DNA from: a virus
Taxonomy: Duplodnaviria; Heunggongvirae; Uroviricota; Caudoviricetes
Length of the DNA stretch: 11,287 nucleotides
Strand: one strand, 5' to 3'
Virus record (IMG/VR): IMGVR_UViG_2740892235_000011
The number at the start of each line of letters is the position of its first letter. Positions within the stretch are counted from its first letter, which is position 1. Shown here in pieces: positions 6,001 through 9,000 of this stretch. Position numbers: made by a program.

Positions 6001-9000
6001 GTCACCCTGACGTTTAATGTGTCGTCTACCGGCGCGAACAACTGGACACCGACGACGTACATCAGTGATTTACTGGTTGTGGTGATGAAAAAATCCACGG
6101 CGGGAATCAGTATCAGCTGACGGTTTATTAACCCGGACGGGCACCCGAAGTGGTGCCTTTTTTATTGACTGAAAACAAAGAGGTAATCATGCGGTATTTA
6201 TACGGAGCCATTTTATTTTTTACCACCCTGCCGGCAGTAATGACTTTTCCTGCACAGGCTGCAGGCGGACACGGTGCATTTTCCGTGGGATATGCTCAGG
6301 TTCACCCGGGCGGCGTGCCGGTATTGTCCGGTACCGGTGCCCGTACAGGTGATTTAAAAGGGATCAACGTGAAATACCGTTATGAATTCACAGACCATCT
6401 GGGCGGCATAGCCTCGCTGAGTTACGCCTCTGCGAAAAAGAGCAGAACCACGATGACCGGGGATAAGGCATTTCATTATGAAAGTCTGCGTGGCCGTTAT
6501 GTGAGCCTGATGGCGGGGCCGGTCTGGCAGGTCAGTGAGCAGCTCAGCCTTTATGGCATGGCCGGGATGGCGCACACCCGCTGGTCTGACAGTGTTCAGG
6601 ATTACCGGCGTGATGAAGTGACACCGGGGGATGTCAGGGTGACCACCACTGCCAGTGATGGTCATTCTGCACGTCATCTGACGCTGGCATGGGGGGCTGG
6701 ACTTCAGTTTAATCCGGCGGATACGGTGGCGGTTGACCTTGCGTACGAAGTGGCCGGTCATGGTGACTGGCGAACGGATGCGTTTATTGTTGGGATTGGA
6801 TACCGTTTCTGACGGCAGATACAGCTTTATCTTCTGTAAATATTGGTATAATGAGCATGTTCATCCAGCTTATGGGTGAGCTGCGTCTGAGGAAACGTAA
6901 AGTTACACTGTCCTGAAGCCCGTGGCATTACTGCTGCGGGCTTTTTTATTGGTGGAAAGGTATGACGGTTAAAATTTCTGGTGTGCTGAAGGACGGGGCC
7001 GGTAAGCCGGTACCGGGATGCACGATAGAGCTGAAAGCGCGACGCACAACGGAGACGGTNNNNNNNNNNATCCCGCACCAGTAATGACATCTGGACAGAG
7101 TGCTTCCTGCATGTTGATCAGAACGGACGCCGGATTTATTCAGGCAGGTCAGTGGAAGAGCCGGGAATTTTCAGCGGGATCATCGATATGCCAGCTGGCG
7201 GTGGTCATATCACCCTGAGTTTTACCGTGAGCTCACGGCGTCAGAATAACAGTTGGGGCAGTTCACGAATCAGTAACCTTCAGGCGATAGTGGTGAAGAA
7301 AAACAGCGCGGGGATCAGCATCCGCTGAACATCGCGCCCCGGGATTGCCGGAAGGAGACAAAAACCGTACAGTATGCGCGGGTGCCTTTGGCTGATGGCC
7401 GGAGGGAACACCTGAAGGCCGGATGTGAAAAGGCCCCGGACAAAACATTCATGTTTAACCCGAGGCCTGACCATTCATCCTAAGCAAGTGAAAGGTTAGC
7501 GCCTCTCCGTAAAAGGAGCAAGCGTTATGTCGCAAAAACCGTTAAAAACCACCGTGATTTGTATCACGGTAGTGCTCATTATCTGGATCACCCACACTTC
7601 ACTGTGCGAGTTCCGGTTCCGGATAGCGGGCGCGGAGATTGCGGCGTTCTTACAGTGTAAGCGGTAAGAAACCGTGGCGGGGGAGTGTACCTTCCCCGCC
7701 GACCGGTTGCTGAGGGTGATCAGCCGGATGGCACCTTTTTAACATCAATAAATCACAAATTTTACCGCAGGCCGGGAAACCGGTCCTGCGGTTTTTTTAT
7801 GGAGGAAATCCATGGCAGTCAGAATATCGGGTGTGCTGAAGGACGGGGCCGGTAAGCCGGTACCGGGATGCACGATAGAGCTGAAAGCGCGACGCACAAC
7901 GGAGACGGTGATTGTCACCACGGTGGCGTATGGTCAGCCGGGGGAAACCGGCAGTTACAGTATGGATGTTGANNNNNNNNNNTTGAAAGACGGGGCCGGT
8001 AAGCCGGTACCGGGATGCACGATAGAGCTGAAAGCGCGCCGCACAACGGAGACGGTGATTGTCACCACGGTGGCGTATGGTCAGCCGGGGGAAACCGGCA
8101 GTTACAGTATGGATGTTGAGCCGGGGTTGTACCGGGTGACGCTGAACACGGAAGGGTACGCGCCGTCATATGTGGGTGACATTCTGGTGAAGGCGGAGTC
8201 TGCACCGGGAACGCTGAATAAATTTCTGATGGACCTGGAGGACGCACAGTATTACCCGAAAGCCCTTGCAGAGCTGGAAGCGGTGGCCGCGGAAATCCTG
8301 AAACGTGCGGAAGCGTCAGCGGCGAGTGCAGAGGAAGCGAAGAAACGGGCAGAGAATGCGCGGGGACCGAAGGGGGATAAGGGAGACACCGGGCCACAGG
8401 GTATTCCCGGGCCAAAAGGCGATACCGGCGANNNNNNNNNNGGCGGCGAGTGCAGAGGAAGCGAAGAAACGGGCTGAGAATGCGCGGGGACCGAAGGGGG
8501 ATAAGGGAGACACCGGGCCACAGGGTATTCCCGGGCCAAAAGGCGATACCGGCGAGCGTGGGCCAAAGGGTGAGCGTGGTGAGGCAGGCCCACAGGGGGT
8601 ACAGGGGCCACGGGGTGAAACCGGACCCGTGGGACCGCAAGGAGAGGCGGGTATTCAGGGGCCTGCTGGTCCTGCGGGCCCGCGAGGTGAAACCGGAGCC
8701 AGAGGCGAAAAAGGAGAGCCGGGAGATCCCGGAGGACCTCCGGGACCAAAAGGTGACACTGGCCCCAGAGGGGAGCCGGGGCCTCAGGGCCCGGCAGGTC
8801 CACAGGGTATACCTGGACCTCCGGGGCCAACAGGTAGCGTCGGTCCTAAGGGGGAAAAAGGCGAGCCTGGTGATCGNNNNNNNNNNGAGGGGACCTGCCG
8901 GAGAGAGAGGGCCGCAAGGATTGCAGGGTGTGGCAGGGGAGAGAGGCGATACAGGTCCGGCTGGTCCACAGGGTATACCTGGACCTCCGGGGCCAACAGG

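What the first reader, a model, noticed from the sequence alone, without database searches (positions are those of the whole stretch)
6121..7811. Alternative cargo at the J-stf junction: lom in one prophage copy, hok-like toxin in another
Two uninterrupted fragments show different gene content at the same position. In fragment 5493-7059 the J stop (6120) is followed by a terminator, lom, another terminator and the stf start (6962). In fragment 7070-7972 a different J allele stops at 7328 and is followed by the hok-like locus and its terminator, then stf at 7812. Each insert carries its own terminator, which is typical of morons. The source genome therefore seems to hold at least two lambdoid prophages with homologous tail genes but exchanged cargo at this slot.
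Basis: seen in the sequence. Interest (0 to 1): 0.6.

Follow-up and report, generated by a model that had tools for sequence, protein, structure and literature searches.

The report
Swappable cargo between phage tail genes
Two lambda-like prophages carry different optional genes at the same spot between tail genes J and stf, an outer-membrane protein (lom) in one and a small toxin-antitoxin cassette (hok/sok) in the other; this is real but ordinary phage mosaicism that is already visible in annotated complete E. coli genomes.

Summary
Fragment 5493-7059 reads J end, terminator, lom, terminator, stf start. Fragment 7070-7972 reads a different J end, a complete hok/sok-type locus, terminator, stf start.

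Both fragments occur intact (100% and 99.7-99.9%) in complete E. coli genomes. In strain RM10466 they lie about 220 kb apart in two separate lambdoid prophages. The window itself is a chain of 21 alternative fragments from a multi-copy tail region.

A survey of 40 related loci shows the J-stf slot can be empty (53-68 nt), hold lom alleles, hold hok, or hold a toxin-deleted hok scar. Cargo assorts independently of the J receptor-binding allele.

The hok unit is a discrete cassette of about 400 bp (7344-7741). The same cassette sits after lom in Stx phages and after ogr in P2-like prophages. The terminator before stf belongs to the slot, not to hok.

Novelty is low: a new member of known kinds.

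Two side leads came up. The published phage "microRNA" 24B_1 maps onto the Sok-like antitoxin hairpin of this cassette family. An unannotated sRNA-like gene follows lom in about 30% of complete E. coli genomes.

The parts
5493..6120 (+). 3' end of tail-tip gene J, the allele linked to lom here (receptor-binding domain; stop at 6118-6120)
   Evidence: PF12421, E 7e-40. 100% identical to gpJ of the RM10466 prophage by ompW/trp. The closest solved structure is 'A8 gpJ' (E 5e-105), then lambda J.
6139..6164 (+). Slot-resident terminator after J, followed by the T-run and Shine-Dalgarno sequence that drive stf in empty slots and drive lom here
   Evidence: Terminator scan. It aligns with the J-stf spacer of the empty slots in L037 and L040, through 'TTTTTTATTG.CTGAAAACAA.GAGGTAAT'.
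6189..6812 (+). lom, an Ail/Lom family outer-membrane beta-barrel protein (207 aa)
   Evidence: PF06316, E 3e-51; phrog_108, E 6e-80. Annotated as WP_001270059.1 in RM10466.
6844..6950 (+). Unannotated sRNA-like gene downstream of lom: extended -10 TGGTATAAT (6844-6852), 5' hairpin (6859-6881), invariant single-stranded stretch (6888-6916), terminator (6915-6947)
   Evidence: Fold z-score -3.9. Conserved between lom and stf in P-EibA, PhiR5_1, 569R4 and Sakai Sp9, with one-sided stem changes. Present in 1650 of 5426 complete genomes and never annotated. No Rfam match.
6962..7059 (+). Start of side tail fibre gene stf (copy 1); the fragment breaks where the sequence becomes identical between copies
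   Evidence: PF08400, E 2e-11. From codon 7 onward it is identical to the stf start at 7812.
7070..7328 (+). 3' end of J, the allele linked to hok here; continues fragment 4367-5482
   Evidence: PF12421, E 2e-24. Fragment 4367-5482 matches L002 10885-12000 and this fragment starts at L002 12001. 62% aa identity to the other allele.
7344..7741 (+). Portable hok/sok-type cassette: hok promoter (-35 at 7345-7350, -10 at 7368-7373), mRNA from about 7380, 5' box 7380-7396, hok SD 7513-7518, hok ORF 7527-7667, post-stop hairpin 7676-7700, 3' box 7719-7736
   Evidence: Similarity to copies in other J contexts, in 933W/phi24B and in P2-like prophages starts at 7344 and ends near 7741. The 5'-3' closure is predicted in all 10 copies. 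Coordinates.
7527..7667 (+). hok-family toxin ORF, 46 aa (MSQKPLKTTVICITVVLIIWITHTSLCEFRFRIAGAEIAAFLQCKR)
   Evidence: PF01848, E 6e-11; phrog_251, E 8e-21. Always 46 codons; dN/dS 0-0.69. Annotated 'Hok/Gef family protein' in RefSeq.
7428..7521 (-). Sok-like antisense RNA gene: -35 TTGCTC (7521-7516), -10 TAACCT (7498-7493), RNA from about 7486 to 7428, ending in a hairpin plus UUUU
   Evidence: Read from the minus strand. Fold. Promoter and hairpin are kept in 8 distinct copies. The homologous promoter and a 20-nt RNA from this hairpin were reported in phi24B as p24B_1 and 24B_1.
7766..7798 (+). Slot-resident terminator plus T-run immediately upstream of the stf Shine-Dalgarno sequence
   Evidence: Absent from the 933W and phi24B copies of the cassette. 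Its T-run plus SD aligns with the empty slot of L041 and is kept in the hok-deleted scar of L028.
7812..7972 (+). Start of stf (copy 2)
   Evidence: PF08400, E 7e-20. Matches L002 12743 onward.

Best explanation
**What it is.** The short spacer between tail-tip gene J and side-tail-fibre gene stf of lambdoid phages is a recombination-tolerant slot for optional genes (morons). The window samples two states of it, from at least two prophages of one STEC-like E. coli lineage.

**State 1 (lom).** The slot holds lom, an Ail/Lom outer-membrane protein expressed from the prophage, plus a small sRNA-like gene that brings its own terminator.

**State 2 (hok).** The slot holds a self-contained type I toxin-antitoxin cassette of about 400 bp. 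It is inserted 15 nt after the J stop and upstream of the slot's resident terminator.

**Inferred mechanism of the cassette, by analogy with R1 hok/sok and hokW/sokW:**
- A weak promoter makes a stable hok mRNA that is locked shut by pairing of its 5' end with a 3' box.
- A stronger convergent promoter makes a short-lived antisense RNA of about 60 nt, complementary to the leader, which prevents Hok synthesis.
- When antisense supply fails, the 46-aa membrane peptide is made and depolarises the cell.

**Why the window looks like this.** J and stf are near-identical between co-resident prophages, so homologous recombination in these flanks reshuffles cargo and J receptor-binding alleles. Short-read assembly also breaks exactly there.

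**Shown versus inferred.** Shown: the anatomy, the presence/absence polymorphism, the linkage data and the genomic contexts. Inferred: expression, toxicity, and the benefit to the phage.
For: - **Gene identities:**
- **Two separate prophages in complete genomes:**. Co-residence is also seen in IMG genomes.
- **The window is a chain of alternative branches:**
- **Slot states across 40 loci:** empty (53-68 nt; L037, L040, L041), several lom alleles, hok, a tandem J'-lom duplication (L034), and a hok scar (L028).
- **Independent assortment:** hok follows at least four distinct J C-termini (cluster 1, L025, L026, L027). The window's lom allele follows two J C-termini.
- **Cassette edges:** constant across J-stf, 933W/phi24B and P2-like contexts.
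- **RNA features:** 5'-3' closure in 10 of 10 copies. The sok promoter and hairpin are kept in 8 of 8 distinct copies.
- **Selection on the toxin ORF:** constant 46-codon length and dN/dS below 1.
- **Experimental precedent:** hokW-sokW in Sp5 is a working type I TA that is switched on by prophage induction (PMC8621323). An antisense-strand RNA from the homologous promoter region was detected in phi24B (PMC4426718).
Against: - No canonical mok reading frame with a start codon overlaps hok. The mok-equivalent frame has no ATG/GTG/TTG before 7559, and it is interrupted in the 933W copy. The upstream short ORFs vary between alleles.
- The Rfam sok match is below the gathering score.
- No promoter for lom was found by the simple scan.
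- Base composition of the inserts does not differ from the flanks.
- Nothing here shows expression or toxicity for this allele.
- That all fragments belong to one genome is inferred from relatives only.
Confidence: 0.85

Rival explanations
1. Assembly artefact: one or both fragments are chimeric, so hok (or lom) does not really lie between J and stf.
For: The window is a scaffold of 21 short pieces from a repeated region. Their order is not genomic order.
Against: Each fragment is uninterrupted across J end, cargo and stf start. Each is matched end to end at 99.7-100% in many closed genomes and in phage 1720a-02 (96.7-97.6%).
Confidence: 0.02
2. The two fragments come from different strains (a mixed sample or pooled assembly), not from two prophages of one genome.
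For: No single listed complete genome matches both fragments at 100% (RM10466: 100% and 99.7%; NZ_CP027462: 99.3% and 99.9%). Some J fragments match phage 1720a-02 better than RM10466.
Against: Co-residence of both slot types in one genome is common. Complete genomes hold up to 10 matching places. The fragment pattern is what a multi-copy repeat in one genome would give.
Confidence: 0.1
3. The hok locus is an inactive relic, like most chromosomal hok loci of E. coli K-12. It is carried passively and has no present function.
For: No canonical mok. Toxin-deleted scars exist (L028). One allele has a 20-nt leader deletion and a GTG start (L027). K-12 hok loci are known to be largely inactivated (established knowledge; Pedersen and Gerdes 1999).
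Against: Both promoters, the 5'/3' boxes, the SD hairpin, the ORF length and the Sok hairpin are intact and kept across copies that are 75-100% identical, in three phage contexts and in 1750 genomes. dN/dS is below 1. The phi24B homologue yields an abundant antisense-strand RNA, and deleting it changes phage behaviour.
Confidence: 0.15
4. The cassette serves the host or prophage in lysogeny, by post-segregational killing on prophage loss or by abortive infection against other phages. It does not serve lytic growth.
For: R1 hok/sok stabilises plasmids and reduces T4 plating (cited in PMC8621323). The cassette also sits in the cargo region after ogr at the end of P2-like prophages, in one genome next to a RES-domain protein gene.
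Against: In both lambdoid contexts the cassette lies in the sense orientation inside the late operon. The one tested prophage hok locus (hokW) is activated by induction and increases phage release. The roles are not mutually exclusive.
Confidence: 0.35

Closest known systems
Bacteriophage lambda J-lom-stf (orf-401) arrangement; lom as a classical moron
   Same: Same slot, same order, same family of outer-membrane protein (PF06316). lom is one of the few lambda genes expressed in lysogens (PMC7067206).
   Different: This lom allele is 624 nt and only about 44-47% identical in protein to the 600-nt lambda-like alleles sampled. It is followed by an extra sRNA-like gene of about 100 nt, which the lambda-like slots lack.
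hok/sok of plasmid R1 (type I toxin-antitoxin, Gerdes)
   Same: Hok/Gef peptide with an LCE.R motif. Convergent antisense RNA gene with a TTGC.C-17-TA.CCT promoter and a terminal hairpin. 5' (tac) to 3' (fbi) closure of the mRNA. The SD is held in a hairpin.
   Different: No canonical mok frame. The peptide is 46 aa rather than 52 aa, and it scores below the NCBIfam HokA/Hok cut-offs (38 and 37 bits against 89 and 73). It lies inside a phage late operon rather than on a plasmid.
hokW-mokW-sokW of Stx2 phages 933W/Sp5 (Takada et al. 2021, PMC8621323)
   Same: A prophage-borne hok-family type I TA. It provides the experimental precedent: toxicity, antitoxin RNA, activation on induction, and twofold more phage released.
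   Different: It is a different locus. In 933W it lies at 58.46-58.73 kb on the other strand, with an annotated mokW. HokW is 51 aa (MKQQKAM...) and only distantly similar.
The lom-vb_24B_43 intergenic locus of Stx phages phi24B/933W/Sp5, source of the 'microRNA-size' RNA 24B_1 (Nejman-Falenczyk et al. 2015, PMC4426718)
   Same: This is the true homologue of the window's cassette: 77% nt identity from the hok -35 to the 3' box, with a 46-aa Hok-like ORF. Their promoter p24B_1 is the sok-like promoter. 24B_1 is the loop plus 3' arm of the Sok-like hairpin and maps to window 7435-7457, minus strand.
   Different: There the cassette follows lom, so both cargo genes sit in tandem and no terminator follows the cassette. 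The locus was interpreted as a microRNA precursor, with no mention of hok, sok or toxin-antitoxin.
Escherichia phage 1720a-02 (KF030445) and RefSeq prophages annotated gpJ / Hok/Gef family protein / tail fibre
   Same: The identical J-hok-stf arrangement, 96.7% identical across the intergenic region. About 118 complete E. coli genomes carry the allele at 90% identity or more.
   Different: None of substance. In the phage record the ORF is labelled 'hypothetical protein'.

Membership tests
hok/sok type I toxin-antitoxin family | Small hydrophobic Hok/Gef toxin ORF (about 50 aa) with the conserved Cys-Glu-x-Arg core | tested here: met
   PF01848, E 6e-11, 42 bits against a cut-off of 22. phrog_251, E 8e-21. 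The SLCEFRFR motif is seen in the sequence. It scores below the NCBIfam HokA and Hok-subfamily cut-offs, so it is a divergent subfamily.
hok/sok type I toxin-antitoxin family | Antisense RNA gene with its own promoter and terminator hairpin, complementary to the toxin mRNA leader | tested here: met
   Met at the sequence level. On the minus strand: TTGCTC, 17 nt, TAACCT, then a hairpin plus UUUU (7521 to 7428). Kept in 8 distinct copies. An RNA from the homologous hairpin was detected in phi24B. Transcription of this allele was not tested.
hok/sok type I toxin-antitoxin family | Long-range pairing of the mRNA 5' end (tac) with a 3' element (fbi) that keeps the full-length mRNA inert | tested here: met
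   In the MFE folds, 15-17 of the first 25 nt pair with the last 40 nt in all 10 copies from three contexts.
hok/sok type I toxin-antitoxin family | Overlapping mok reading frame whose translation is coupled to hok and is the direct target of Sok | tested here: not met
   The mok-equivalent frame is open from 7484 to 7660 but has no ATG/GTG/TTG before 7559. It carries a stop in the 933W copy. The short upstream ORFs (for example GTG 7425 to TAG 7499) differ between alleles. Some other form of coupling is possible but is not shown.
hok/sok type I toxin-antitoxin family | Match to the curated Rfam sok model (RF01794) at its gathering score | tested here: inconclusive
   51.1 bits against a gathering score of 59, E 3e-9, full model length. 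The match is on the hok-sense strand, covering the leader at 7380-7538.
hok/sok type I toxin-antitoxin family | Toxicity of the peptide and its neutralisation by the antisense RNA | not testable with these tools
   Shown only for hokW-sokW, a different locus (PMC8621323).
Ail/Lom outer-membrane protein family | Full-length match to the Ail/Lom beta-barrel profile, with an N-terminal signal peptide | tested here: met
   PF06316 residues 1-207 match profile positions 1-199 of 199, E 3e-51. PF13505, E 8e-18. The N-terminus MRYLYGAILFFTTLPAVMTFPAQA reads as a signal peptide (from the sequence; not run through a predictor).
Moron (Juhala/Hendrix sense) | The gene is present between two genes that are adjacent in related phages | tested here: met
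   Empty J-stf slots of 53-68 nt in L037, L040 and L041, against 483 nt (hok) and 841 nt (lom) here.
Moron (Juhala/Hendrix sense) | Own promoter | tested here: inconclusive
   The hok cassette has two conserved promoter-like elements. No promoter-like site was found upstream of lom by the consensus scan. The sRNA-like gene after lom has an extended -10.
Moron (Juhala/Hendrix sense) | Own downstream terminator | tested here: inconclusive
   The lom unit brings the terminator at 6915-6947. The terminator after hok (7766-7798) is a slot feature and is absent from the 933W copy of the cassette.
Moron (Juhala/Hendrix sense) | Base composition distinct from the surrounding phage genes | tested here: not met
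   GC is 0.553 for lom and 0.540 for the hok cassette, against 0.525-0.552 for the J fragments. Only the lom-to-stf spacer is AT-richer (0.45).

The most novel reading that the evidence does not exclude
The cassette is a working type I toxin-antitoxin system, and its Sok-like antitoxin is the precursor of the published phage 'microRNA' 24B_1. If so, the phenotypes ascribed to that microRNA reflect loss of a toxin-antitoxin system. Because the cassette lies in the sense orientation inside the late operon (after J, or after lom), antiterminated late transcription would run over the convergent sok promoter. That would drain the antitoxin and let Hok depolarise the membrane late in infection, helping to trigger holin and set lysis timing. 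Cargo choice at the J-stf slot would then change the phage's own lytic programme, and not only host fitness.
Probability: 0.3. Interest if true: 0.55.

Novelty: new member of a known kind. Interest (0 to 1): 0.3.

Why it matters
As stated, the finding is a clean textbook case of lambdoid mosaicism. It explains why short-read assemblies of STEC-like genomes shatter in the tail region. It also shows that the J-stf spacer is a cargo slot with at least four states, and that cargo reassorts independently of the receptor-binding end of J.

It would matter more if the side leads hold.
- A hok-family cassette present in about a third of complete E. coli genomes (1750 of 5426), in three unrelated phage backbones, has not been recognised in the searchable literature as the origin of the "first functional bacterial microRNA-size RNA" (24B_1). 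That claim would need re-reading as type I toxin-antitoxin biology.
- A conserved sRNA-like gene after lom, present in about 30% of complete genomes including O157:H7 Sakai Sp9, is absent from Rfam, from RefSeq annotation and from the EHEC Hfq-binding catalogue.

Tried and rejected
- **Genome-contig scan with the Stf N-terminus.** It was swamped by collagen-like GPKGDKGD repeat hits from unrelated phyla.
- **hokW as the homologue.** Rejected. The primers and annotation show hokW is a different locus at 58.5 kb in 933W.
- **A canonical mok.** Searched in all frames and alleles and not found. An apparently conserved leader ORF (GTG 7425 to TAG 7499) is not kept in L026, L027 or phi24B, so I do not claim it.
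- **The sRNA-like element after lom as PasB.** Rejected. PasB maps to the I-J intergenic region of EPEC prophage PP6, on the opposite strand.
- **The same element as an EcOnc sRNA.** None of the 64 Hfq peaks in Sakai lies at 1798916-1799066. EcOnc28 lies by the tRNAs in the Q region.
- **EcOnc53 as the Sok-like RNA of Sp5.** Rejected. The peak covers the lom terminator, about 80 nt beyond the predicted Sok 3' end, and it was not detected by Northern blot.
- **Rfam search of the lom-to-stf spacer.** Only noise, with E of 0.16 or higher.
- **Text search for the element's conserved core.** No paper contains it.
- **Compositional signature of horizontal insertion.** None found.
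Full report
**1. What the window is**

The 11,287-base window is not one continuous locus. It is 21 fragments of 65-1567 bases joined by runs of exactly 10 N. I mapped every fragment onto two prophage loci of the complete genome of E. coli RM10466 and onto phage 1720a-02.

All fragments lie along the axis J, stf, tail-fibre assembly gene. Several fragments cover the same coordinates with different alleles: three at the J start, three in mid-J and three at the stf start. The window is therefore a linearised chain of alternative branches through a tail region that exists in several copies.

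Fragment 4367-5482 ends at the base that precedes the hok fragment in RM10466 (L002 12000 and 12001). The lom fragment sits between those two in the window as the alternative branch. The order of fragments is not genomic order, but each fragment is internally continuous.

**2. The observation**

Fragment 5493-7059 holds:
- the J C-terminal receptor-binding domain, ending at 6120 (PF12421, E 7e-40);
- a terminator-like hairpin at 6139-6158;
- an Ail/Lom ORF at 6189-6812 (PF06316, E 3e-51; phrog_108, E 6e-80);
- a 13-bp-stem terminator at 6915-6944;
- the stf start at 6962 (PF08400).

Fragment 7070-7972 holds:
- another J allele, ending at 7328;
- a 46-aa Hok/Gef ORF at 7527-7667 (PF01848, E 6e-11, above the curated cut-off; phrog_251 "MokW-like host killing", category "moron, auxiliary metabolic gene and host takeover", E 8e-21);
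- an Rfam sok match at 7380-7538 (E 3e-9, 51 bits against a gathering score of 59);
- a terminator at 7766-7798;
- the stf start at 7812.

The two J ends are 62% identical in protein over the last 208 residues and diverge most in the last 100 or so. The two stf starts differ in the first six codons and are identical afterwards. That is where the lom fragment breaks.

**3. Are the fragments real, and do they belong to separate prophages?**

The lom fragment is matched over its full length at 100% in five complete genomes. A place covering at least 80% of it occurs in 367 genomes. The hok fragment is matched at 99.9% in seven genomes, and a place covering at least 80% of it occurs in 101. Chimerism is therefore excluded.

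In RM10466 the lom fragment lies at 1.578 Mb in a prophage next to the ompW remnant and the trp operon. The hok fragment lies at 1.357 Mb in another prophage next to potB. Both have the full lambda-like tail gene order, and RefSeq annotates "Ail/Lom family" and "Hok/Gef family protein" between gpJ and the tail fibre gene.

Strains 2014C-3338 and NZ_CP027462 also carry both fragments. Among IMG/VR contigs that share the stf start, three source genomes contribute contigs of both types. For the source sample itself it remains an inference.

**4. The slot across related phages**

I collected 17 viral contigs with the exact stf 29-mer and 20 with a related Stf N-terminus, down to 42% identity. I added the three reference loci, then recomputed the true J stop and the J-stf gap for all 40.

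The slot has at least these states:
- **Empty:** 53-68 nt, consisting of one terminator, a T-run and the stf Shine-Dalgarno sequence (L037, L040, L041).
- **The window's lom allele:** gap of 840-843 nt.
- **Lambda-like lom alleles of 600 nt:** 44-47% protein identity to the window's lom, gap of 688-796 nt.
- **A tandem J'-lom-J'-lom duplication:** L034.
- **hok:** gap of 458-502 nt.
- **An extra 196-aa ORF of unknown family followed by hok:** L025.
- **A 182-nt remnant:** L028.

I clustered the last 100 residues of J at 90% identity and cross-tabulated the clusters with cargo.
- hok follows at least four unrelated J C-termini: the common allele, L025, L026, and L027. The L027 C-terminus is 86% identical to the "lom-type" allele.
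- The window's lom allele follows two J C-termini, which are 61% identical to each other.

Cargo and receptor-binding allele therefore reassort. The cargo units behave as independent modules, not as part of a "J-end plus cargo" block.

**5. Which terminator belongs to what**

I aligned the empty slots with the two window fragments.

The sequence after the J stop in the lom fragment is terminator 6139-6157, then TTTTTTATTGACTGAAAACAAAGAGGTAAT. This is the same unit that precedes stf in the empty slots of L037 and L040. Here it precedes lom.

In the hok fragment, the T-run and Shine-Dalgarno sequence before stf (TTTTTTTATGGAGGAAATCC-ATG) align with the empty slot of L041. The copy of the hok cassette in 933W and phi24B has no such terminator.

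So hok is inserted between the J stop and the slot's own terminator. lom is inserted after that terminator. Only the terminator at 6915-6947 came in with cargo.

**6. Anatomy of the hok cassette**

*Edges.* Similarity between the window, four other J contexts, 933W/phi24B and three P2-like prophages begins at ATTGCCGG (7344), 15 nt after the J stop. Upstream of that point the sequences are mutually unrelated. Against 933W, similarity ends just after the 3' GGCACC box, near 7741.

*Features within the cassette, in order:*
- the hok promoter TTGCCG, 17 nt, TACAGT (7345-7373), kept in all contexts;
- the mRNA start near 7380;
- a 5' box GGGUGCCUUUGGCUGAU (7380-7396), which pairs in the minimum-energy fold with AUCAGCCGGAUGGCACCU (7719-7736);
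- a hairpin that holds the hok Shine-Dalgarno sequence (GGAG paired with CUCC, 7505-7518);
- the ORF;
- a GC-rich hairpin after the stop (7676-7700).

*The 5'-3' closure.* It is predicted independently in all ten copies, which are 75-100% identical. In every copy, 15-17 of the first 25 nt pair with the last 40 nt.

*The antisense gene.* On the minus strand, TTGCTC, 17 nt, TAACCT (7521-7493) precedes an RNA of about 59 nt (7486 to 7428). The RNA ends in a long hairpin and UUUU. The promoter and hairpin are kept in eight distinct copies. Loops and inner-stem sequence differ, but the stem persists.

*The toxin ORF.* It is always 46 codons and keeps LCE.R...GAE.AAFLQCK. Pairwise dN/dS is 0-0.69. 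RNA-structure constraints on synonymous sites would, if anything, inflate this ratio.

*The one family feature that fails: mok.* The equivalent frame is open from 7484 to 7660 but has no start codon before 7559. It is interrupted in 933W. The short upstream ORFs are not conserved between alleles. I therefore file the locus as a divergent hok/sok-type cassette that works like the family, but whose coupling mechanism is not established.

**7. Distribution and relatives of the cassette**

A sensitive DNA search finds the cassette family in 1750 of 5426 complete E. coli genomes, with up to nine copies per genome. RefSeq annotates it as "Hok/Gef family protein" almost everywhere. Only about 118 genomes carry the window's allele at 90% identity or more. 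The rest are 75-78% identical.

The distant copies sit in two other contexts:
- directly after lom in short-tailed Stx phages (933W, Sp5, phi24B and about 190 other phage records);
- directly after ogr at the end of P2-like prophages in ST131 and other lineages.

In Stx phages the two cargo genes that alternate in this window lie in tandem.

The cassette is not hokW-sokW. That characterised system lies at 58.46-58.73 kb of 933W on the other strand, has an annotated mokW, and encodes a 51-aa peptide. Stx phages therefore carry two hok-family loci.

**8. Link to the published RNA 24B_1**

Nejman-Falenczyk et al. (2015, PMC4426718) reported a 20-nt "microRNA-size" RNA from phi24B, at HM208303 positions 45711-45692 between lom and vb_24B_43. 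They predicted a promoter p24B_1 (-35 TTGACT, -10 CGCTAACCT) and a hairpin precursor of about 80 nt. They also made a deletion that altered lysogenisation, induction and burst size.

Mapping shows the following:
- p24B_1 is the sok-like promoter of the lom-adjacent cassette.
- 24B_1 (UAACGUUAAGUUGACUCGGG) is the loop plus 3' arm of the Sok-like terminator hairpin. It is equivalent to window 7435-7457 on the minus strand.
- Their deletion (190 nt by my mapping) removes the hok promoter, the 5' box, the leader and the sok -10. It stops just before the hok Shine-Dalgarno sequence.

That paper contains no mention of hok, sok or toxin-antitoxin. The authors' 2017 mini-review treats Hok-Sok and 24B_1 in separate sections. 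No other relevant paper in the searchable library contains both terms.

This gives indirect experimental support that the antisense promoter of this cassette family is active. It also suggests that the 24B_1 phenotypes are toxin-antitoxin phenotypes. Papers outside the library may already have said so.

**9. How it most likely works**

*Shown:* the anatomy, the conservation and the contexts.

*Inferred from R1 hok/sok and hokW-sokW:*
- In a lysogen the weak hok promoter produces a closed, translationally inert mRNA.
- The convergent promoter supplies an unstable antisense RNA that pairs with the leader.
- Hok is made only when antisense supply stops.

In both lambdoid contexts the cassette lies in the sense orientation inside the late operon. 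A plausible trigger is therefore antiterminated late transcription running over the sok promoter. This would fit the reported disappearance of sokW, the RecA-dependent appearance of HokW after mitomycin C, and the twofold higher phage release with the locus present (PMC8621323). I rate this at about 0.3.

Prophage addiction and abortive infection are equally conventional alternatives. They are not exclusive of the lysis-timing role.

lom is a lysogen-expressed outer-membrane protein (PMC7067206). No promoter for it was detected by the consensus scan.

**10. The element after lom**

In lambda-like slots, the spacer between lom and stf is 64 nt and contains only a terminator. Here it is 149 nt.

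The extra part has the following features:
- an extended -10 (TGGTATAAT, 6844-6852);
- a 5' hairpin (6859-6881), whose stem is kept through one-sided U-A to U-G changes in P-EibA, PhiR5_1, 569R4 and Sakai Sp9;
- an invariant single-stranded stretch (6888-6916);
- the terminator with a U-tail (6915-6950).

Its predicted fold has a z-score of -3.9. It occurs between lom and stf in 1650 of 5426 complete genomes and is never annotated.

It has no Rfam match. It is not PasB. It is not among the 64 Hfq-bound EcOnc peaks of Sakai. Its core sequence appears in no searchable paper.

It looks like an sRNA gene with its own promoter in the 3' region of lom. Expression is untested.

**11. Verdict**

The biology is the expected mosaicism of lambdoid prophages. 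A known moron (lom) and a member of a known toxin-antitoxin family alternate at a known kind of slot, and both are already annotated in many complete genomes and present in a deposited phage.

I rate it a new member of a known kind, with interest 0.3. What lifts it above the minimum are the discreteness and reach of the cassette, the 24B_1 connection and the unannotated sRNA-like gene.

Noticed in passing
window 7428-7521 (minus strand); L184 (HM208303) 45692-45711: The published phage 'microRNA-size' RNA 24B_1 and its predicted promoter p24B_1 map onto the Sok-like antitoxin hairpin and promoter of the lom-adjacent hok-family cassette, the homologue of the window's cassette. The authors' deletion removes the hok promoter, the leader and the sok -10. 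Neither that paper nor the 2017 mini-review mentions a hok/sok locus there.
   Followed up: yes
window 6844-6950 (+): An unannotated sRNA-like gene lies between lom and stf: an extended -10, a 5' hairpin, an invariant single-stranded stretch and a strong terminator. It is present in 1650 of 5426 complete E. coli genomes, including Sakai Sp9. It has no Rfam match and is neither PasB nor among the EcOnc Hfq-binding peaks.
   Followed up: partly
L028:4819-5000: A toxin-deleted scar of the hok cassette. The hok promoter and 5' box GGGTGCCTTTGAC are fused directly to the 3' box TGACGGCACCC, followed by the slot terminator and stf. The hok ORF and the sok gene are gone.
   Followed up: partly
L185, L186, L187 (about 3440-3960 in each): The same 46-aa Hok cassette (75-78% nt identity) sits immediately after ogr at the end of P2-like prophages in ST131 and other lineages. 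In one genome it lies next to a RES-family NAD+ phosphorylase gene. One cassette therefore occupies three unrelated phage backbones.
   Followed up: partly
L034:740-5000: A tandem duplication in the slot: J 3' end, lom, J 3' end, lom. It is followed by a truncated stf start and what looks like a transposase-like ORF before the next stf start.
   Followed up: no
L025:895-1485: A 196-aa ORF lies between a divergent J end and the hok cassette. It has no NCBIfam match, and the Pfam call that included it failed. This is another possible cargo at the slot.
   Followed up: partly
L001:4618-5781 (RM10466 prophage by trp): A full-length porin gene annotated ompC sits inside the tail operon, between the 'phage tail protein' gene after the tape-measure gene and minor tail protein L. 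This looks like another moron slot in the same prophage.
   Followed up: no
L001:8023-8932 and L002:7663-8572; window 181-1067 overlaps the 3' part: About 900 nt between the tail assembly gene and J carry no annotation in RM10466. In EPEC E2348/69 the Hfq-dependent sRNA PasB maps to this same intergenic region, on the opposite strand (NC_011601 1466261-1466343).
   Followed up: no
L195 (Sakai) 1292386-1292438, minus strand: The Hfq-CRAC peak EcOnc53 of Tree et al. 2014 covers the lom terminator. It lies just upstream of the hok promoter of the Sp5 lom-adjacent cassette, about 80 nt beyond the predicted Sok-like 3' end. It does not overlap the RNA and was 'not detected' by Northern blot.
   Followed up: yes
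window 1-11287: The window is a scaffold-like chain of 21 fragments with 10-N joints. Alternative alleles of the same J and stf segments follow one another, with at least three alleles at some positions. Coordinates across the joints do not reflect genomic adjacency.
   Followed up: yes
window 7380-7538 (+): The Rfam 'sok' model RF01794 matches the hok-sense strand, from the mRNA 5' end to the hok start, and not the antisense strand. As used here, the model behaves as a hok-leader model.
   Followed up: no
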